A DNA stretch of 64,000 bases, from the IMG/VR virus record IMGVR_UViG_3300005831_000057, one strand, 5' to 3'. The first letter of the stretch is position 1; each line of letters begins with the position of its first letter. The notes under the pieces are model-generated. The model was given only the letters and a program-made list of their open reading frames with translations. It did not search any database and was not told the origin of the DNA. The stretch comes from a virus. Taxonomy: Duplodnaviria; Heunggongvirae; Uroviricota; Caudoviricetes. Of this stretch, positions 18,844-48,511 are shown piece after piece. Both the position numbers and the translations under genes were made by a program.

Positions 18844-18872
18844 ATTATACATACTCTTCTTAGTATTGTCAA
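18844..18872 (-). promoter_or_regulatory. Consensus sigma-A promoter (minus strand): TTGACA-N17-TATAAT
   Basis: Reverse complement reads TTGACAatactaagaagagtatgTATAAT. Confidence 0.55.
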
Positions 18873-28096: not shown

Positions 28097-28125
28097 ATTA
28101 TATCATATATCTTTTTGGTTGTCAA
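28097..28125 (-). promoter_or_regulatory. Consensus sigma-A promoter (minus strand): TTGACA-N17-TATAAT with an upstream A-tract
   Basis: Reverse complement reads AAAAAAAAGTATTGACAaccaaaaagatatatgaTATAAT. Overlaps the last codons of the 2TM gene. Confidence 0.55.
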
Positions 28126-31199: not shown

Positions 31200-32108
31200 T
31201 TATTTACTATTATACACCTTTTTAAACATTGTGTCAATACTATCTTCTAAATTATATCTAATTTCTGACGTGGAGTTATTTGCATACTTGCCGTCTACTA
31301 GATCGATATAAAATGTAAAGTTTCCATCATCTCCCATATAGAAAGACTTCCAATCTTTTTCGTCCATCTTGTTTTTTAAGTCTAATTGCTTCAATGCTAA
31401 ATTGTCAAAACTTACAACTTTAAAGTGCGTAAATATATCTATTATATTGTCACTCATAAACTTCTTTCTTGCTTCAATCAATTCTTCGTTATTTTTAAAA
31501 TTATCAACACCACGTCTAAATTGCTTATATCCCAATACTAAAATCTTTAAATCATTATTAGCTAAAGCTTCTATATCTCTTTGACTTACGATTCCATTAA
31601 TTATATGTATAACCGCATTGTCGAACTTCTTGATATCGGCTATAAACTTACTAGTCGGATTGCTTAATGACACTCCTAGCCCATTAATAAGTTTTTGTTC
31701 GTATAAGTATCTTATCTTGTCAAAATATCTATCGAAATGAACTTGGTTTACTGTCATGCTTACGATTATACTTTTACTCTTCATAAGCTCTAAAAATTCT
31801 ACGATGTCTGGATGCGAAATTGGATTGCCTCCACCAATAGCAAGTTCTGTATATGGATGCAGCGAATTATAAAAAGTTGGATTCAATATATCTCCGTGCA
31901 ACCCTTCGATACTGCTATTTTCATGACACATAGGACAGCTTAGATCGCAGTAGTTGGTAATTTTGACATCGCAACATTCACTAAACTCTGGAATAAACTC
32001 GTCATCTTTTGTTTGTCTTATTTTTGTTCCATTATCTAAATCTAATAGCACATTAAAGTTTCCATTTTTATAAGTAACAAATTTCATATTATTAGTCATC
32101 CCTTCCAT
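31200..32108 (-). CDS. Radical SAM protein (candidate glycyl-radical activase, NrdG-like, or another radical SAM enzyme)
   Basis: CDLSCPMCHE is a CxxxCxxC cluster motif of the activase type. AIGGGNPISHPD is a glycine-rich SAM-binding-like motif. Confidence 0.5.
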   Translation of the reverse strand: MEGMTNNMKFVTYKNGNFNVLLDLDNGTKIRQTKDDEFIPEFSECCDVKITNYCDLSCPMCHENSSIEGLHGDILNPTFYNSLHPYTELAIGGGNPISHPDIVEFLELMKSKSIIVSMTVNQVHFDRYFDKIRYLYEQKLINGLGVSLSNPTSKFIADIKKFDNAVIHIINGIVSQRDIEALANNDLKILVLGYKQFRRGVDNFKNNEELIEARKKFMSDNIIDIFTHFKVVSFDNLALKQLDLKNKMDEKDWKSFYMGDDGNFTFYIDLVDGKYANNSTSEIRYNLEDSIDTMFKKVYNSK

Positions 32109-43393: not shown

Positions 43394-44347
43394 TTATTTG
43401 TCTTTAATTATTGCACTTACGCCTTGAACAGTAACTTTGCTACCGTTCCATTTTTCTATTTCTTTATATTTAACAAGATTATCATTAATTGATGCTGAAA
43501 TCTTCTTGTTGGCAGTAGCTTCTGCACTAGATTTAATAATTACTGCATCTGCATCGGCTTTTGCTTTTGATAAAATCTGTTTATTCTTGTTTTGCTGCGT
43601 AATAATATTCTGTTCGGATGAAAACTTTTGGTTAATTGACTTCTGAATAGACGCATCTTGATAAGTTAATCCATTTTTCATACCTAAAACTGTAATGGTA
43701 ATTCCACGTCCACTAAAATAATCCACTACATCTTTTCTTACACTGTCCATAATAACACTTTTGTTTGCTAGCACATTATTTAACGTGTATTTTGCACACT
43801 CTTCGACAAATTTAGACTCTACTCTTGCCCTAATTTCAGTATCCATAATATTTGCTAACGTCTTATTATTGTATCTATATAAGAATTTTGTAGCATTAAA
43901 CTCGTCAATTTGAGCAGAACAGTTCATTCCGACACTGAAACCGATTGATTCTTTTGATTCAGCCATAATTACTTGATTTTTTGGGGTAGTTCCAGTCTTG
44001 CTATCGGATGTCCACTCTCTTGTTTCTGGCTTTCTTTCCACGATAACTAATTTTACTGTTGCACGATAATACCCAGAGTCTTCAAATCTTCCAGTTTGAA
44101 CCCATCTTTTAGAAATCGTGATCTCTTTTGATGCGACTTTTGCACTATTTAACGCTTCTTCTGACTTAAAAACTTCTTGATCAACTACATCTCCAGTCAA
44201 TGGAATCAAAAATGCCGTCTGCGAAGCCTCTATTGTTTTAATTTCTGGCTTATTATATGGTCTGCATCCCATAAACGAGCATGATACTAATACAAATAAT
44301 ACAACTAAAATACTTCTTCTAATTCTTACGCTTGGTTTAATTTTCAT
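43394..44347 (-). CDS. SPFH/band-7 (prohibitin-like) domain lipoprotein
   Basis: Lipobox LVSCSF. The central region resembles a band-7 domain and is followed by an Ala/Lys-rich coiled coil. Confidence 0.45.
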   Translation of the reverse strand: MKIKPSVRIRRSILVVLFVLVSCSFMGCRPYNKPEIKTIEASQTAFLIPLTGDVVDQEVFKSEEALNSAKVASKEITISKRWVQTGRFEDSGYYRATVKLVIVERKPETREWTSDSKTGTTPKNQVIMAESKESIGFSVGMNCSAQIDEFNATKFLYRYNNKTLANIMDTEIRARVESKFVEECAKYTLNNVLANKSVIMDSVRKDVVDYFSGRGITITVLGMKNGLTYQDASIQKSINQKFSSEQNIITQQNKNKQILSKAKADADAVIIKSSAEATANKKISASINDNLVKYKEIEKWNGSKVTVQGVSAIIKDK

Positions 44348-44814: not shown

Positions 44815-44967
44815 AATTCCTCCTATTTAATTAATTTGTTGGCATAAAATTAAGACCATCCAAAATATATCAATATATAACTCTTTGGTCTTATTGTGCC
44901 TAAACACAGAGTTTTCATCATATGGGTTTTGTTTGCTGTTAGAATCCTATACAAGATTCGTAATATA

Positions 44968-46473
44968 TTACATAATCTCTTTTAAAATATCTTCTAATGG
45001 CTGATATCTTTCAGAGTTAAGTACGTCTAACAATACTTCATATGGATCCATTTTGTCAGATAACACCATCTTGAAAGTGTTTACTGAAAATCCACTTACT
45101 AAGGCAACTCCAAGTTCATTTTGAATTACTGGAATAGTACTGCTTCTTGAACATACATTCCAAAATACCAACCTTGGCATATTATATCCATGATCTTTGA
45201 AATCTTGTGTTAGCTTGTCAAAGATTCTTACTTCTGCATTTTCTTTGCATTCGTCAAATTCCATATCGGATATAACCAAAATATTACTTGGCAAATCCTC
45301 TTGTTTCATATTGCCATTAATCGCAGTGTCGAGAATAAGCTTAAACACAGCCTCGATGTCGGTGTTACTTACTTCCCATTCATCATTAGCTCTGTGAAGT
45401 TTTGCCAATAATGAATCGCGTCCGCTTAAATCGACAAGCTGAGGTTTACTTGAAAACGTAATAAACTTATCCTTAAACTCTCCACTACACCTTTCTGAAA
45501 AATATATAGAAAGTGAAGTAGCTACATCGTGTGCAGTTACAGTGGTATTTCCTACACTTGTACCCATACTACCCGAACCATCTCTTACGACAATTGTATT
45601 CGAATTTCCATCAACAATATCTTTCTGATTAGCCCACAACATTTCAAGATTACTGTCTAAGTCTGTGCGATACTCACTTTTATACCTAGAAACTATCTCG
45701 TATGGCATAAGAACTCCAGCGTTAACAGTCTCTTCTCCACTTTTAACCTTCTCTATAAACTCTGAACGCCTTGCTTCGTCATGCTTATAGAACGCTGCGT
45801 TGTAAAGAAGATTATTCTTTGATGTAATTGTCTTGTAGTTAATTTCATCCCATCTTCCACTACACATTTTAACTTCTACCACGTCGATATATCTTCTAAG
45901 ACTTGATAATGCTTTTCTATATTCCTTTTCAGTAAGTCCAAGATATCCGCTTACAATTTTTCCAAGTCTCTTAGTATTCTTAGAGCTTGCATTAATAGAT
46001 GGTAGCCACTTACCAAGCAATGAAACTTCTTGATCATTGTCTAAAGCATTAAGATCTTGATCAAGAGTACGTTTGATCATTGATAATACTAATTCTGACA
46101 ACTTTGTGTCTAGTAAGCATAAAATGTCGTCGAATCTTCCATAGAAAGGAATAAACTTAATTAAATCCTTTACCACTTCTTTGTTGTTTTCAGCCAAATA
46201 GCAAATAATAATCTTGAACAAATTTCTTTCTCCTAGTCCTTCTCTTATATCTCTGGCGTAAAATAACCACTTGATTGAATTCTTTGCATCTTCGTCATAA
46301 GCCTTAACAAAAGATTTGATAATTTCTTCACTCGTAGAATTTCTAAATGAAGAAACTTTAAAATTTAAATCCAATAAATATTTTCCAGTAGTCTTATATC
46401 CTAAACCACCATTCTCTGTGATACTAAAATTGTTATCTAAATCTAACTGTTTTTCTAATTTTGTAATAAACAT
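44968..46473 (-). CDS. TROVE-like + vWA protein related to Ro60/Rsr (DUF2828-like)
   Basis: C-terminal vWA MIDAS VVRDGSGSMGT...T...D. The ~290-aa helical N-terminal region is compatible with TROVE. AGAGGA RBS. Confidence 0.55.
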   Translation of the reverse strand: MFITKLEKQLDLDNNFSITENGGLGYKTTGKYLLDLNFKVSSFRNSTSEEIIKSFVKAYDEDAKNSIKWLFYARDIREGLGERNLFKIIICYLAENNKEVVKDLIKFIPFYGRFDDILCLLDTKLSELVLSMIKRTLDQDLNALDNDQEVSLLGKWLPSINASSKNTKRLGKIVSGYLGLTEKEYRKALSSLRRYIDVVEVKMCSGRWDEINYKTITSKNNLLYNAAFYKHDEARRSEFIEKVKSGEETVNAGVLMPYEIVSRYKSEYRTDLDSNLEMLWANQKDIVDGNSNTIVVRDGSGSMGTSVGNTTVTAHDVATSLSIYFSERCSGEFKDKFITFSSKPQLVDLSGRDSLLAKLHRANDEWEVSNTDIEAVFKLILDTAINGNMKQEDLPSNILVISDMEFDECKENAEVRIFDKLTQDFKDHGYNMPRLVFWNVCSRSSTIPVIQNELGVALVSGFSVNTFKMVLSDKMDPYEVLLDVLNSERYQPLEDILKEIM

Positions 46474-46512
46474 AATCTTCCTCTTTTCTTTTCATTTTTT
46501 TATTTAATCACT

Positions 46513-46562
46513 AGATACCATATTCATCGCATATGATTTTTTTAATTTGCTGCGTGTACCTA
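46513..46562. repeat. Direct repeat copy R1 (core TTCATCGCATATGATTTTTTTAATTTGCTGCGTGTACC)
   Basis: Near-identical to R4. Read directly from the sequence. Confidence 0.8.
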
Positions 46563-46586
46563 TGATTATGTTTTATTTTTTACTTA

Positions 46587-46627
46587 CAAGATGCCATATT
46601 TCATCGCATATGATTTTTAATTTGCTG
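46587..46627. repeat. Direct repeat copy R2 (CAAGATGCCATATTTCATCGCATATGATTTTTAATTTGCTG)
   Basis: Shares the core with R1 and R4. Directly flanks the tRNA-like element. Confidence 0.8.
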
Positions 46628-46639
46628 TTAACATCTTAA

Positions 46640-46752
46640 TCGACACAGTAGGGCTCGAACCTACGACATATAGTTTTCTTTTTTATTGCTGTATAAATAT
46701 TTTACAATATTTTAAATTTTGCTATCGCTCTCCCAGCTGAGCTATGTGTCGA
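46640..46752 (-). ncRNA. tRNA-like ncRNA with a ~50-nt expansion replacing the anticodon arm; candidate Y-RNA-like (YrlA-type) RNA
   Basis: On the minus strand: a perfect 7-bp acceptor stem (CGACACA/TGTGTCG), a D-arm GCTCAGCTGGGAGAGC and a T-arm GTAGGTTCGAGCCCTAC. ~50 nt of AT-rich insert with an AAATATT-GTAA-AATATTT hairpin lies between the D- and T-arms. No CCA is encoded. Confidence 0.5.
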
Positions 46753-46782
46753 ATCTACTAGATGCGCTTTAACTTTAAAATA

Positions 46783-46807
46783 GTTTTTTTAATTTGCTGC
46801 TTACATC
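46783..46807. repeat. Partial direct repeat copy R3 (TTTTTTTAATTTGCTGCTTACATC)
   Basis: Matches the 3' half of R1/R2/R4. Flanks the tRNA-like element on the other side. Confidence 0.6.
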
Positions 46808-46817
46808 TATTTTTTTA

Positions 46818-46870
46818 CAAGATACGTTATTTTCATCGCATATGATTTTTTTAATTTGCTGCGTGTACCT
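46818..46870. repeat. Direct repeat copy R4 (CAAGATACG...TTCATCGCATATGATTTTTTTAATTTGCTGCGTGTACCT)
   Basis: 38/38 identity with the R1 core. Located at the predicted 5' end of the transcript from the 46881-46909 promoter. Confidence 0.8.
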
Positions 46871-46880
46871 TACTTTAATC

Positions 46881-46909
46881 ATTATATCATACTTATTTTT
46901 GCTTGTCAA
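46881..46909 (-). promoter_or_regulatory. Perfect-consensus sigma-A promoter (minus strand): TTGACA-N17-TATAAT with an A-tract UP element
   Basis: Reverse complement reads AAAAAAAGTGTTGACAagcaaaaataagtatgaTATAAT. Confidence 0.6.
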
Positions 46910-46960
46910 CACTTTTTTTATTTATTTTTTTATTTAATTTGCATCAACTACTATAAAAAT

Positions 46961-46989
46961 ATTATATCATGTATATTTCAAGATGTCAA
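46961..46989 (-). promoter_or_regulatory. Second perfect-consensus sigma-A promoter in tandem (minus strand)
   Basis: Reverse complement reads AAAAAAAGTATTGACAtcttgaaatatacatgaTATAAT. Confidence 0.6.
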
Positions 46990-46997
46990 TACTTTTT

Positions 46998-47720
46998 TTA
47001 AATTATTACTAAGTTATTTATATAATCTCTATTCTTTGTGAATATTGGTATTTCGTTATCGATCACCCATTCGCCAAGTCCGTTTCTTATGGCGCAAGAT
47101 CCTCTTTTGAAACTAGTCTCGACATTATTCCAATTAATATCCTTCTCCATCAACATATCTTGTACCTCCGACGTATTCTTAAATTGTAAAGACTTGTGAG
47201 AAAATACCGACTGAGCCAATCCATTTATACTATTCCTTGTGGCATCTTGCTGTCGCCAAACTAAGCAGTTAGCAGCGTCTCCTTTTGGTATGTTGAAAAC
47301 TCTTGAGTCAAATGTAGCACTCTTAAGTTTTTCATATTTATCTATATTGCAACCGTCTATTCTACTACATATACTCTTATTAAATTCCAAAGTAGCAATA
47401 GAAGCTGAAACGCTTACCATCTTTTGGATATTATTACTAAACCAAGGCTGAGTTTCAAGTCTAAAATAATCCACTATCAATAGCGTTATTTCGTCAGACT
47501 GTGTATACCCAAGCACGCAACCTTGTATTTTCTTGCACAATTGTAGCATCGTATCTTGCATCGCACCAGATAAAACTGTGTCGTATGGACGATCTATTCC
47601 TTTGGCTAAAGTGTGAAACGCACAGCCGTCAAGTCTTATAATGACTGGAGTTCGTCTCATTAATTCTCCATTACTAACTCTTTCATAAGCCTTCATTCTA
47701 TCTCCTAGCGAATCTACCAT
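46998..47720 (-). CDS. Thg1-like protein (tRNA-His guanylyltransferase family 3'-5' polymerase, TLP)
   Basis: KAYERV, VIIRLDGCAFHTL, GYTQSDEITLL, VWRQQDATRNSINGL and the C-terminal block align with the Thg1/TLP hallmarks (KFEYVR, VVVRLDGRNFHRF, AYGQSDEYSF, SWRQADCHINNL). Confidence 0.85.
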   Translation of the reverse strand: MVDSLGDRMKAYERVSNGELMRRTPVIIRLDGCAFHTLAKGIDRPYDTVLSGAMQDTMLQLCKKIQGCVLGYTQSDEITLLIVDYFRLETQPWFSNNIQKMVSVSASIATLEFNKSICSRIDGCNIDKYEKLKSATFDSRVFNIPKGDAANCLVWRQQDATRNSINGLAQSVFSHKSLQFKNTSEVQDMLMEKDINWNNVETSFKRGSCAIRNGLGEWVIDNEIPIFTKNRDYINNLVII

Positions 47721-47731
47721 AAACTCACCTC

Positions 47732-48511
47732 CTATAATATTATTGCGTCAAGTCCTATATTTACACTGTCGAACGCATTTCTCTTCTCTTCTTTAGTTAT
47801 TCCAATATATTCAAGCGTAATAGAGCTAGAACTGTGCCCTAAAATACTCTGCAATACAGATAACATTTTTCCTTTATCTTCTGACGTATCATATCTAAAT
47901 CTGCAAAAACTACGTCTTAGGCTATGTGTGCCAACATCGTACCTTACACATGCGAAGTCTGATGCATCCTTTATGCTCTTGTAAAAAGCAGGATAATTCA
48001 TATGTCCGCCTCTAGCACCTTCAAATACATAATCTTCATGATTTACATATTTTATATTCTTGCCAACAGACTTAAGATAATTACTTATTGCCATTCTAAA
48101 TCCTTCATTAAAAGACAAAAAAACATGCTTGTCATATCTACTTGTTTTTTCTGGCTTAATCGTTTTGCCATCTTTGAAATTATTATTATCGTCTAGTATA
48201 TCGCCAAACTTAATAGACAATAAGTCATTTATTCTAAGCCCGAGATTTATATTGCATAAGAATATTGCCTTTTGGCATCTATAAGAATCTCTATATCTAT
48301 ACTGCGATTCAGTTATCATTTTGTCATAATATGCTACAAACTTATTTACATCTTCTAGCCTAATATATTCGCCTTTATCTTCACGATTACTTTTGGCGTT
48401 AGACTTCGTTTGTTTTGGAAGTCCATCTTTTCTTAATTTTGCTACTTTACCGCCGTCTATAACTTCTAACGGCTTACTTGTTTCAAAAGAATAAATTCTT
48501 GCAGTATTCAT
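47732..48511 (-). CDS. Tyrosine recombinase / integrase family protein
   Basis: R (GLRINDLL), HSLRRSF (HxxR) and LGHSSSSITLEYIG (catalytic Tyr) motifs. Confidence 0.7.
   Translation of the reverse strand: MNTARIYSFETSKPLEVIDGGKVAKLRKDGLPKQTKSNAKSNREDKGEYIRLEDVNKFVAYYDKMITESQYRYRDSYRCQKAIFLCNINLGLRINDLLSIKFGDILDDNNNFKDGKTIKPEKTSRYDKHVFLSFNEGFRMAISNYLKSVGKNIKYVNHEDYVFEGARGGHMNYPAFYKSIKDASDFACVRYDVGTHSLRRSFCRFRYDTSEDKGKMLSVLQSILGHSSSSITLEYIGITKEEKRNAFDSVNIGLDAIIL

What the first reader, a model, noticed from the sequence alone, without database searches (positions are those of the whole stretch)
46480..46997. Dense regulatory locus: two tandem perfect-consensus promoters feeding four ~40-bp direct repeats that bracket the tRNA-like RNA
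Two promoters 80 bp apart both read TTGACA-N17-TATAAT with A-tract UP elements on the minus strand, implying very high transcription. The transcript begins at repeat R4, passes partial R3, the tRNA-like element, then R2 and R1 before the Ro60-like gene. The repeats (core TTCATCGCATATGATTTTTTTAATTTGCTG, R1/R4 identical over 38 nt) are direct, not inverted. They are not ordinary terminators. They could be processing signals, protein-binding sites, or remnants of duplicated ncRNA modules.
Basis: seen in the sequence. Interest (0 to 1): 0.7.

Follow-up and report, generated by a model that had tools for sequence, protein, structure and literature searches.

The report
Repeated RNA partners of Ro-like protein
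The four "repeats" and the tRNA-like element are copies of a conserved phage RNA motif that is absent from Rfam and always lies beside a Ro60-like protein gene. It most likely forms a Y-RNA-style RNA-protein particle linked to tRNA repair.

Summary
There are two perfect TTGACA-N17-TGnTATAAT promoters, four direct repeats, a tRNA-like element and a downstream gene with a Ro60 fold. The repeats are not DNA-level regulatory sites. Each is a ~57-nt structured RNA module: a 7-bp closing stem (5' strand AGRCRC), two free bases, an invariant ACAGCAA, a variable loop, then GYGYCUUG.

Covariance models built only from other phages recover exactly these four copies in the window. They also recover two hairpin-permuted copies, one inside the anticodon arm of the tRNA-like RNA and one just 3' of the gene. 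The family occurs in hundreds of phages, including Listeria P100, FelixO1-like phages, KVP40 and mycobacteriophage JoeDirt. It always lies on the strand of a DUF2828 gene, usually inside tRNA arrays, and often near RNA ligase, Thg1-like and SPFH genes. The stem shows abundant compensatory change.

Rfam 15 and the searchable literature do not describe it, and the canonical Y-RNA motif GNCGAA is absent. Best reading: these are Y-RNA analogues of a divergent Ro60 paralogue, expressed at high level. Protein binding is inferred, not shown. I rate it a new variant of a known kind.

The parts
46961..46989 (-). Promoter P1: TTGACA-N17-(TG)TATAAT, with an A-tract upstream
   Evidence: 12/12 consensus match. 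It is one of 5 exact matches in the window against 0 expected.
46919..46955 (-). Degenerate remnant of a module start downstream of P1 (…GTTGATGCAAATTAAATAAAAAAA). It has lost CAG and the closing stem.
   Evidence: The P1 and P2 units align over ~86 nt, including the remnant. No covariance model hit.
46881..46909 (-). Promoter P2: TTGACA-N17-(TG)TATAAT. The predicted start lies ~46874, at the first base of module R4.
   Evidence: the module begins at 46873.
46815..46873 (-). Module R4 (stand-alone form): stem AAGGUAC/GUAUCUU, AC, GCAGCAA, loop with a UCAU-AUGCG-AUGA hairpin
   Evidence: Model R2, built without window sequences: 40.0 bits, E 2.9e-7. Fold.
46755..46811 (-). Module R3 (stand-alone form): stem UAGAUG/CAUCUA, UAA, GCAGCAA, loop with AACU-AUUUUAA-AGUU (a 7-nt loop resembling an anticodon loop)
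   Evidence: R2: 33.0 bits, E 1.5e-5. Fold.
46640..46751 (-). tRNA-like RNA with intact acceptor, D and T arms. The anticodon loop is replaced by a 48-nt insert and no credible anticodon remains.
   Evidence: Rfam tRNA 46.4 bits. ARAGORN finds none. The best candidate 'loop' is AAAGAAA, with no U33. It belongs to a class of 110-140-nt 'long tRNAs' in related loci.
46681..46714 (-). Hairpin-permuted core inside the tRNA-like RNA: AAAUAUU-GUAA-AAUAUUU-AU-ACAGCAA
   Evidence: Model R3, built without window sequences: 26.3 bits, E 1.5e-5.
46584..46639 (-). Module R2 (stand-alone form): stem AAGAUG/CAUCUU, UUA, ACAGCAA. It abuts the 3' end of the tRNA-like RNA.
   Evidence: R2: 36.1 bits, E 2.6e-6.
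46508..46564 (-). Module R1 (stand-alone form): stem UAGGUAC/GUAUCUA, AC, GCAGCAA. It ends 35 nt before the start codon.
   Evidence: R2: 33.7 bits, E 9.9e-6.
44968..46473 (-). DUF2828/DUF7788 protein (501 aa). It has a Ro60-like fold: a helical repeat ring plus a vWA domain with an intact DxSxS MIDAS motif.
   Evidence: Pfam and PHROG hits (phrog_850, 'RNA-binding protein'). AlphaFold model with pLDDT 80. The top 11 Foldseek hits are all Ro60, full length. D298, S300 and S302 are invariant.
44928..44961 (-). Hairpin-permuted core just 3' of the stop codon: GAAUCUU-GUAU-AGGAUUC-UA-ACAGCAA
   Evidence: R3: 29.5 bits, E 1.6e-6, the best hit in the window.
46998..47720 (-). Thg1-like 3'-5' nucleotidyltransferase (tRNA 5'-end repair family), directly upstream of the promoters
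   Evidence: Pfam Thg1 E 3e-29 and phrog_4717. Homologues lie near DUF2828 in 19 of 81 viral loci.
43394..44347 (-). SPFH/Band-7 protein, two small ORFs downstream of the DUF2828 gene
   Evidence: Pfam Band_7. An SPFH family gene lies within 2.5 kb of DUF2828 in 31 of 81 viral loci.

Best explanation
The locus is a cluster of small RNA genes, not a set of DNA control sites.

**What is there.** Two strong sigma-70-type promoters drive a transcript that carries six copies of one RNA recognition core. The core is a short helix (5'-GYGYCUU-3' paired with 5'-AAGRCRC-3') followed by two free bases and single-stranded ACAGCAA.
- In four copies (R4, R3, R2, R1) the helix closes a ~57-nt stem-loop.
- In two copies the same helix is a local hairpin. 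One replaces the anticodon loop of a tRNA-like RNA. The other lies just after the Ro60-like gene.

**Inferred mechanism.** The DUF2828 protein encoded immediately downstream has the ring-plus-vWA fold of Ro60. I infer that it binds this core and forms particles analogous to Ro60-Y RNA complexes.
- The stand-alone modules would act like YrlB/Y RNAs, as gates or regulators of the ring.
- The tRNA-embedded copy would act like YrlA. It would tether the protein to a tRNA-shaped handle that tRNA-handling enzymes recognise, such as the neighbouring Thg1-like enzyme, RNA ligases in related phages, and host RNase P, RNase Z and the CCA-adding enzyme.
- RNase P and RNase Z cuts at the tRNA-like element would release R3 and R2, because these modules abut it within 0-3 nt.
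- The likely purpose is tRNA or RNA quality control and repair, or countering host anticodon nucleases, during infection.

**Shown:** the family, its structure, its strand and position linkage to DUF2828 and tRNA arrays, and the Ro60 fold.

**Inferred:** transcription, processing, protein binding and biological role.
For: 1. **Leave-out detection.** Model R2, built from 150 hits in other phages, finds only the four repeats in 64 kb (E 3e-7 to 1.5e-5). Model R3, built from 81 hairpin cores in other loci, finds 44928-44961 and 46681-46714 as its two best hits.
2. **RNA-level selection.** The 7-bp stem is 98-100% paired, and all 7 pairs show double compensatory changes. There are 94, 140 and 80 double-change cells in three alignments, one of them from an independent collection. 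Slid controls pair only 29-59%. The hairpin form is 95.6% paired with 172 double-change cells.
3. **Linkage.** All 235 hits in the 81 viral loci searched (80 alignment-derived plus L001), and all 52 hits in 82 genome and metagenome loci, lie on the DUF2828 strand. In the viral loci they cluster just 5' or just 3' of the gene. The [AG]CAGCAA motif reaches 116 and 108 copies per 250-nt bin upstream, against 0-5 inside the gene and about 0 antisense. In the reverse test, 19 of 42 true modules found by DNA pattern have DUF2828 nearby, against 2 of 81 chance matches.
4. **Protein fold.** The 11 best PDB matches are all Ro60, aligned full length (E 1.6e-8 to 1e-3, TM 0.46-0.61). The MIDAS residues are invariant.
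5. **Y-RNA-like logic.** The conserved motif lies on and after the 5' strand of a terminal stem. That is where GNCGAA/GGUCCGA lies in Y RNAs (PMC4201824, section 6). In mycobacteriophage JoeDirt, one module encloses a circularly permuted tRNA-like domain, which is the YrlA topology.
6. **Repair context.** Within 2.5 kb of DUF2828, an RNA ligase occurs in 20 loci, Thg1-like in 19 and SPFH in 31. RtcB lies near the Listeria P100 copy. 74 of 80 loci lie in tRNA arrays, and all 217 tRNAs are on the same strand.
Against: - No binding, expression or processing data exist for any member. Protein binding rests on adjacency and analogy.
- The canonical Y-RNA motif is absent: 0 of 150 modules carry it, and there is none in the window. 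The protein is not a Pfam TROVE member.
- The individual modules are thermodynamically weak (z -0.3 to -1.4).
- Some true modules lie in large tRNA arrays with no DUF2828 in the stretch held. Linkage is therefore strong but not shown to be obligate.
- In Vibrio phage KVP40 the single module overlaps the gene's ribosome-binding site and start codon, which fits a cis-regulatory role there.
- In other phages no promoter directly precedes modules (0 of 74). The window's promoter arrangement is therefore local.
Confidence: 0.6

Rival explanations
1. Cis-acting leader. The modules are binding sites in the 5' UTR (and 3' UTR) of the DUF2828 mRNA, through which the protein autoregulates its own translation or stability. 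They would not be free-standing RNA partners.
For: R1 ends 35 nt before the start codon. In most loci the nearest module ends 30-110 nt before the ATG. In KVP40 the 3' strand of the only module covers the start codon, and the Shine-Dalgarno sequence lies in its loop. No terminator separates the RNAs from the gene.
Against: - There are four to nine copies per locus.
- Copies are embedded in tRNA bodies and lie up to 1.5 kb upstream within tRNA arrays.
- In Staphylococcus phage 6ec, FelixO1-like VpaE1 and JoeDirt the copies lie only 3' of the gene.
- True modules also lie in arrays with no DUF2828 nearby.

This role can coexist with a trans-acting one.
Confidence: 0.15
2. Processing punctuation. 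The modules are recognition or spacer elements for host or phage ribonucleases that mature polycistronic tRNA-array transcripts, independent of the DUF2828 protein.
For: Modules abut tRNAs or the tRNA-like element within 0-5 nt. 74 of 80 loci lie in tRNA arrays on the same strand. Some modules lie in 20-tRNA arrays with no DUF2828 in view.
Against: - The window has no canonical tRNA at all, yet keeps six copies.
- Known tRNA arrays are matured by RNase P and RNase Z without such elements (established knowledge).
- Module density peaks at the DUF2828 gene boundary rather than evenly across arrays.
- An invariant 7-nt single strand plus a sequence-constrained helix looks like a specific protein-binding site.
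Confidence: 0.1
3. Intervening or mobile sequences. The core is a small intron-like or selfish insertion that has invaded tRNA anticodon arms and intergenic spacers. It would be removed by cleavage and ligation (RtcB or Rnl nearby), with the Ro-like protein as a splicing or maturation cofactor.
For: At least 12 of the 36 long tRNAs from related loci become perfect tRNAs (5-bp anticodon stem, CU-NNN-AA loop; Asn GUU, Lys UUU, Thr GGU, Ser) if a 41-55-nt insert between nt 28 and 29 is removed. RNA ligases or RtcB are frequent neighbours.
Against: - The insert position (28/29 or 31/32) is not the canonical 37/38.
- The inserts are far too small for group I introns, and no self-cleaving ribozyme family matched.
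- No splicing endonuclease was seen.
- The window's tRNA-like RNA has no anticodon loop to restore.
- Stand-alone copies have nothing to be spliced from.
- There are no copies elsewhere in the 64-kb window, which argues against mobility.
Confidence: 0.08
4. DNA-level repeats. The units are operator, iteron or transcription-factor sites, or plain low-complexity duplication in AT-rich DNA, with no RNA function.
For: The units are direct repeats next to strong promoters in a genome of 32% G+C. The P1/P2 region does show recent tandem duplication.
Against: - Every hit lies on one strand: 287 of 287 module hits on the gene strand.
- Compensatory base-pair changes preserve a stem across phages of Bacillota, Actinomycetota and Pseudomonadota.
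- A circularly permuted form of the same helix exists.
Confidence: 0.02

Closest known systems
Bacterial and phage Y RNAs, especially YrlA and YrlB, the partners of Ro60/Rsr (Chen et al. 2014, PMC4201824; Wang et al. 2018, bioRxiv 10.1101/312249; phage phiLo Yrl1/2, PMC12135203)
   Same: - Small RNAs encoded next to a Ro60-fold protein gene, on the same strand.
- A terminal stem whose 5' strand carries the conserved motif.
- A modular design that joins a protein-binding module to a tRNA-like domain through the anticodon stem.
- Several RNAs per locus.
- Frequent linkage to RNA ligases.
   Different: - The partner protein is DUF2828, 11-16% identical to Ro60 and with no Pfam TROVE hit.
- The motif is AGRCRC-NN-ACAGCAA rather than GNCGAA(N)G/GGUCCGA (0 of 150 modules carry the latter).
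- In the window the tRNA-like domain has normal topology with free ends. The binding module is inserted in the anticodon arm, rather than the permuted, loop-closed acceptor of YrlA.
- The modules are embedded in tRNA gene arrays.
- They are not matched by any Rfam 15 family except tRNA.
b7a-tRNA: a Band-7-associated tRNA-like RNA predicted next to RtcB (Burroughs & Aravind 2016, as cited in bioRxiv 10.1101/312249; the original paper could not be read here)
   Same: A tRNA-like non-coding RNA in an RNA-repair neighbourhood that includes a Band-7/SPFH protein and, in relatives, RNA ligase or RtcB.
   Different: The defining sequence features of b7a-tRNA could not be checked. Here the SPFH gene is optional (31 of 81 loci), and the constant partner is DUF2828 plus the ACAGCAA core.
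tRNA genes with intervening sequences (archaeal and eukaryal bulge-helix-bulge introns; bacterial group I introns in anticodon loops)
   Same: An insertion of tens of nucleotides in the anticodon arm of an otherwise canonical tRNA. Ligase genes lie nearby.
   Different: - The insert sits at a non-canonical position (28/29 or 31/32).
- There is no bulge-helix-bulge motif or group I core.
- The identical motif also exists outside tRNAs.
- The window copy has no anticodon.

Membership tests
Y RNA / YrlA-type Ro60 partner RNAs | Encoded within a few kb of a Ro60-family gene, on the same strand | tested here: met
   All 6 window copies lie on the gene strand, within 400 nt 5' of the gene or 40 nt 3' of it. 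All 235 and all 52 hits in related loci lie on the gene strand.
Y RNA / YrlA-type Ro60 partner RNAs | The partner protein is a Ro60 (TROVE ring plus vWA) protein | tested here: inconclusive
   The fold matches Ro60 over its full length. The sequence belongs to Pfam DUF2828/DUF7788, not TROVE. A profile search of PDB sequences gives only E 0.7 to TROVE chains.
Y RNA / YrlA-type Ro60 partner RNAs | Conserved GNCGAA(N0-1)G / GGUCCGA Ro-binding motif near the 5' end | tested here: not met
   No match in 46474-46960, and 0 of 150 family members carry it. The conserved motif is AGRCRC-NN-ACAGCAA.
Y RNA / YrlA-type Ro60 partner RNAs | The 5' and 3' ends pair into a stem that closes a large loop or effector module | tested here: met
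   A 7-bp closing stem with compensatory change at all 7 pairs.
Y RNA / YrlA-type Ro60 partner RNAs | YrlA only: a circularly permuted tRNA-like domain with a loop-closed acceptor stem | tested here: not met
   The window's tRNA-like RNA has normal topology. A permuted version does occur inside a module of mycobacteriophage JoeDirt.
Y RNA / YrlA-type Ro60 partner RNAs | Physically bound by the Ro60-family protein | not testable with these tools
   Needs immunoprecipitation, gel-shift or structural work.
tRNA (Rfam RF00005) | Cloverleaf scoring above the family's gathering threshold | tested here: met
   46.4 bits against a threshold of 29 for 46640-46751.
tRNA (Rfam RF00005) | Seven-nucleotide anticodon loop with U33 on a 5-bp stem (decoding competence) | tested here: not met
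   48-nt insert. The best candidate loop is AAAGAAA on a 4-bp stem. ARAGORN finds no tRNA.
Intrinsic terminators | G+C-rich hairpin followed by a U-run | tested here: not met
   0 sites in 45000-48500.
tRNA introns (group I or bulge-helix-bulge) | Insertion at 37/38 with a bulge-helix-bulge motif, or a ≥200-nt group I core | tested here: not met
   Inserts are 39-68 nt, at 28/29 or 31/32. There is no intron or ribozyme family hit, even at E ≤ 10.
b7a-tRNA (Band-7-associated tRNA-like RNA) | tRNA-like RNA adjacent to a Band-7 gene and an RNA ligase | tested here: inconclusive
   The SPFH gene lies at 43394-44347. No ligase homologue of the type linked to DUF2828 in related loci was found in the window. 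The source paper was not available, so its sequence definition could not be applied.

The most novel reading that the evidence does not exclude
Phages graft the binding site of a Ro60-like protein directly into otherwise perfect tRNAs (Asn GUU, Lys UUU, Thr, Ser) at nucleotides 28/29 of the anticodon stem, and also into minimal anticodon-stem-loop mimics. This would be a new class of tRNA-protein particle. Two forms are possible:
- (a) a protein-assisted tRNA splicing or maturation pathway in bacterial viruses, using the neighbouring RtcB/Rnl ligases; or
- (b) 'armoured' tRNAs and anticodon-loop decoys that the Ro-like ring shields from, or presents to, host anticodon nucleases.

The window's six-copy, anticodon-less locus would then be a stripped-down decoy version.
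Probability: 0.15. Interest if true: 0.9.

Novelty: new variant of a known kind. Interest (0 to 1): 0.68.

Why it matters
DUF2828 proteins occur in at least 692 sequenced phage records, including Listeria P100/A511-type, FelixO1-type, KVP40, Staphylococcus, Enterococcus, Campylobacter, mycobacteriophage cluster L and jumbo phages. They also occur in thousands of metagenomic proteins. Yet they are annotated only as 'RNA-binding protein', 'vWFA protein' or 'hypothetical', with no known RNA partner.

This analysis supplies a concrete candidate partner with a defined sequence and structure. It shows that the partner is modular and can be fused to tRNAs. It also ties the pair to RNA ligase, Thg1-like and SPFH genes.

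That makes a long-unannotated, very common phage gene directly testable in tractable phage-host pairs. It extends the Ro60-Y RNA principle to a second, divergent protein-RNA lineage. It also explains many 'long tRNA' and unannotated gaps in phage tRNA arrays.

Tried and rejected
- **Rfam.** Searches at gathering threshold and at E ≤ 10 gave only tRNA, so no known ncRNA, riboswitch or ribozyme family explains the repeats.
- **Single-sequence folding.** The 402-nt transcript and each module gave non-significant z-scores. Thermodynamics alone would have dismissed the structure. Covariation rescued it.
- **ARAGORN in intron mode.** It forced an implausible tRNA-Tyr(AUA) with an intron at 32/33 and a long variable arm. 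I rejected this.
- **Close relatives of the window phage.** Megablast of 20 kb found nothing. Single-protein scans of viral and metagenome contigs found only relatives at about 36% identity. An exact-protein lookup found nothing. Copy-number variation of R1-R4 among close relatives could therefore not be examined.
- **Promoter-at-module-start as a general rule.** It is seen in the window and in Bacillus phage FADO, but in 0 of 74 modules elsewhere.
- **A cis complement of ACAGCAA.** I looked for a base-pairing partner near the gene. There is no enrichment of the reverse complement.
- **Literature.** Searches for DUF2828, ACAGCAA, Ro-like, interrupted tRNA and b7a-tRNA found no description of these RNAs. 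Burroughs & Aravind 2016 and two Wolin-lab reviews are not in the library, so prior mention there cannot be excluded.
Full report
**1.

All features lie on the minus strand.
- Two sites at 46989-46961 and 46909-46881 read TTGACA-N17-TATAAT, each with a TG extended -10. The exact 29-nt pattern occurs five times in the window, always on the minus strand, and never in 100 shuffles.
- The two promoter units are an 80-nt tandem duplication. It includes a decayed copy of the start of the first repeat.
- Four direct repeats follow. R1 and R4 share a 39-nt identical core.
- Between R3 and R2 lies a 112-nt element that scores 46.4 bits on Rfam tRNA, with 48 extra nucleotides in the anticodon loop. ARAGORN does not call it.
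- No terminator-like site is present.
- The gene that follows (44968-46473) hits Pfam DUF2828/DUF7788 and PHROG 850, 'RNA-binding protein'.
- An AlphaFold model of the protein (pLDDT 80, pTM 0.77) has Ro60 structures as its 11 best PDB matches, aligned over the full length. These are Thermus phage phiLo Ro60 (E 1.6e-8, TM 0.57-0.61) and Xenopus and human Ro60. The MIDAS residues D298, S300 and S302 are invariant in the family.
- 'Ro60-like' is therefore right at the fold level, although identity is only 11-16%.

**2. What the repeats are**

Each repeat folds so that its ends pair: GGUAC/GUAUC in R1 and R4, AGAUG/CAUCU in R2 and R3. These are already compensatory differences within the window.

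I collected 80 viral loci that encode relatives of the protein at about 50% identity. The heptamer [AG]CAGCAA is hugely enriched on the gene's strand just upstream. It reaches 116 and 108 copies per 250-nt bin, against 0-5 inside the gene and almost none antisense. The same holds in 55 loci from bacterial genomes.

The extended consensus over 367 non-redundant instances is A-G-R-C-R-C, two free bases, ACAGCAA, then a U-rich run. Two architectures appear:
- **Stand-alone form:** AAGRCRC-NN-ACAGCAA, a ~35-nt loop, then GYGYCUUG.
- **Hairpin form:** GYGYCUUG, a ~4-nt loop, then AAGRCRC-NN-ACAGCAA. This is the same helix, circularly permuted. It is typically inserted in the anticodon arm of 110-140-nt 'long tRNAs'.

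**3. Tests of membership and structure**

- A covariance model seeded with 55 modules found 235 hits in the 81 viral loci searched (these 80 plus L001), every one on the gene's strand. Most lie within 300 nt 5' of the start codon or within ~130 nt 3' of the stop codon.
- A second model, built only from those hits with no window sequence, recovers exactly R4, R2, R1 and R3 in the whole 64-kb window. Scores are 40.0, 36.1, 33.7 and 33.0 bits, with E from 2.9e-7 to 1.5e-5, and there are no other hits.
- A third model, built from 81 hairpin-type cores of other loci, gives two best window hits: 44928-44961, just after the stop codon (29.5 bits), and 46681-46714, inside the tRNA-like RNA (26.3 bits). 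The locus therefore holds six copies of one core.
- The closing stem is 98-100% paired, with double compensatory changes at all seven pairs. Slid-partner controls pair only 29-59%. This includes an independent set of 52 hits from bacterial genome contigs. The hairpin form behaves the same way.
- Caveat: the seeds were chosen for pairing, and model-fitted alignments lean towards the model. The variety of pair types, the independent collection and the leave-out detection are the stronger arguments.

**4. Breadth of the family**

- The protein family has 692 matching phage records.
- Modules lie directly 5' of gp165 in Listeria phage P100, with RtcB ('tRNA splicing ligase') four genes downstream.
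- They are scattered through the tRNA array of Bacillus phage FADO.
- They lie directly 3' of the gene in Staphylococcus phage 6ec, in FelixO1-like VpaE1 and in mycobacteriophage JoeDirt.
- In JoeDirt the middle module encloses a T arm, a loop-closed acceptor stem and a D arm. This is the circularly permuted tRNA-like layout described for YrlA (PMC4201824; bioRxiv 10.1101/312249).
- In KVP40 the single module covers the gene's ribosome-binding site and start codon.
- In the reverse test, a DNA pattern scan of IMG/VR gave 42 matches that also have the closing strand. Of these, 19 have a DUF2828 gene on the same strand in the stretch held, against 2 of 81 matches without the closing strand. The remainder lie in large tRNA arrays.

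**5. Gene neighbourhood**

- 74 of 80 viral loci carry canonical tRNA genes within 2.5 kb, and all 217 are on the same strand.
- Recurrent neighbours within 2.5 kb are SPFH/Band-7 (31 loci), an RNA ligase with an OB domain (20 loci, immediately 3' of the gene), a Thg1-like enzyme (19 loci) and a NifS-like enzyme (9 loci).
- The window has the Thg1-like gene (46998-47720) and the SPFH gene (43394-44347). It has no ligase of that type and no canonical tRNA.

**6. Mechanism**

The parallels with Ro60-Y RNA systems are these:
- a Ro60-fold protein;
- adjacent same-strand small RNAs;
- a conserved motif on and after the 5' strand of a terminal stem, which is where Ro60 contacts Y RNA (PMC4201824, section 6);
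- a tRNA-like domain joined to the binding module through the anticodon arm;
- RNA-ligase neighbours.

I therefore infer that the DUF2828 protein binds the helix-plus-ACAGCAA core. The stand-alone modules would be YrlB/Y-RNA-like regulators. The tRNA-embedded copy would be a YrlA-like tether to tRNA-handling enzymes.

R3 ends 3 nt before the tRNA-like 5' end, and R2 starts at the base after its discriminator. RNase P and RNase Z cleavage would therefore liberate them (inference). R4 starts at the predicted +1 of P2.

Binding, transcription, processing and biological role are all untested. An overexpression screen found the homologous mycobacteriophage LeBron gp53 toxic to the host, and mentions no RNA partner (PMC13148394).

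**7. Comparison with known families, and novelty**

- The canonical Y-RNA motif GNCGAA(N)G is absent from the window and from all 150 modules examined.
- The protein is not a Pfam TROVE member.
- The window's tRNA-like RNA is not permuted.
- No Rfam 15 family other than tRNA matches.
- Ten full-text searches found no description of these RNAs. Three relevant papers could not be read, so earlier mention cannot be ruled out.
- I therefore do not file this as a YrlA member. It works like a Y RNA for a divergent Ro60 paralogue: a new variant of a known kind.

**8. Rivals**

- **Cis-acting autoregulatory leader.** Supported in KVP40, and may coexist with a trans-acting role. The many copies, tRNA-embedded copies and 3' copies argue against it as the sole role.
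- **Processing punctuation for tRNA arrays.** The window has no tRNAs to process, yet keeps six copies.
- **Intron-like or mobile insertion.** At least 12 of 36 long tRNAs from related loci would become perfect tRNA-Asn, -Lys, -Thr or -Ser if a 41-55-nt insert between nt 28 and 29 were removed. But the position is non-canonical, no ribozyme or endonuclease was seen, and the window copy has no anticodon.
- **DNA-level repeats.** Excluded by strict strand bias and covariation.

The most novel reading that survives is that these are protein-marked tRNAs and anticodon-loop mimics, used for splicing-like maturation or as decoys against anticodon nucleases. In support, 33 of 90 stand-alone modules carry a mini-hairpin resembling an anticodon stem-loop, against 9.5 in shuffles, mostly with UUU or UGA triplets.

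Noticed in passing
window 18844-18872, 28097-28125, 31209-31237 (minus strand): Three further perfect TTGACA-N17-TATAAT sites, all on the minus strand and all with TG or a similar sequence before the -10 box. Perfect consensus promoters appear to be a general feature of this phage's leftward (probably early) transcription, not unique to the RNA locus.
   Followed up: partly
L067:1391-1507, L046:1946-2060, L032:1766-1882, L002:2077-2193, L079:1866-1993 and others: 'Long tRNAs' that are canonical tRNA-Asn(GUU), Lys(UUU), Thr(GGU) or Ser, apart from a 41-55-nt hairpin+ACAGCAA insert exactly between nucleotides 28 and 29 of the anticodon stem. A second class carries the insert at 31/32, with loops such as AUGGGGA.
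   Followed up: partly
L166:3990-4110 (Mycobacterium phage JoeDirt, 3' of gp52): A module whose loop holds a T arm, a tetraloop-closed acceptor stem and a D arm. This is a circularly permuted tRNA-like domain, as in YrlA, but flanked by the GCAGCAA-type core instead of the GNCGAA motif.
   Followed up: partly
L168:2445-2484 (Vibrio phage KVP40, 5' of KVP40.0300): This is the only module in the locus. Its loop contains the Shine-Dalgarno sequence and its 3' stem strand contains the start codon of the DUF2828 gene. That arrangement suggests translational autoregulation in this phage.
   Followed up: no
stand-alone modules of L016, L018, L020, L024, L033, L069 and others; window R3 (46755-46811): Module loops often hold a 3-4-bp mini-hairpin with a 7-nt N-U-NNN-R-A loop, about 11 nt after ACAGCAA. 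This occurs in 33 of 90 modules, against 9.5 in shuffles. Triplets are mostly UUU and UGA. The window's R3 has AACU-AUUUUAA-AGUU.
   Followed up: partly
window 46789-46827 (minus strand): The 3' strand of R4 can pair with the 5' strand of R3 to imitate the hairpin form of the core (model R3, 16.8 bits, E about 0.01). Neighbouring modules may therefore switch between intra-module and inter-module pairing.
   Followed up: no
window 46919-46955 (minus strand): Downstream of P1 lies a decayed copy of the module start (GTTGATGCAAATTAAATAAAAAAA). The two promoters arose by tandem duplication of a promoter-plus-module unit, and the upstream module has since degenerated.
   Followed up: yes
window 47732-48511 (minus strand): A short (259 aa) tyrosine-recombinase/integrase-family gene sits next to the Thg1-like gene, within what otherwise looks like a replication and RNA-metabolism block of a large phage.
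   Followed up: no
L164 (Listeria phage P100, NC_007610.1 123714-126399): The record's five tRNA features are annotated on the strand opposite to the one on which Rfam finds the tRNAs, which is the strand of gp165. The 620-nt gap that holds the three modules is unannotated.
   Followed up: no
window 44825-44900 (minus strand): After the 3' core lies a second hairpin, AAGACCA…UGGUCUU. Its stem resembles the family's closing helix but it lacks ACAGCAA. It could be a decayed module or a weak terminator.
   Followed up: no
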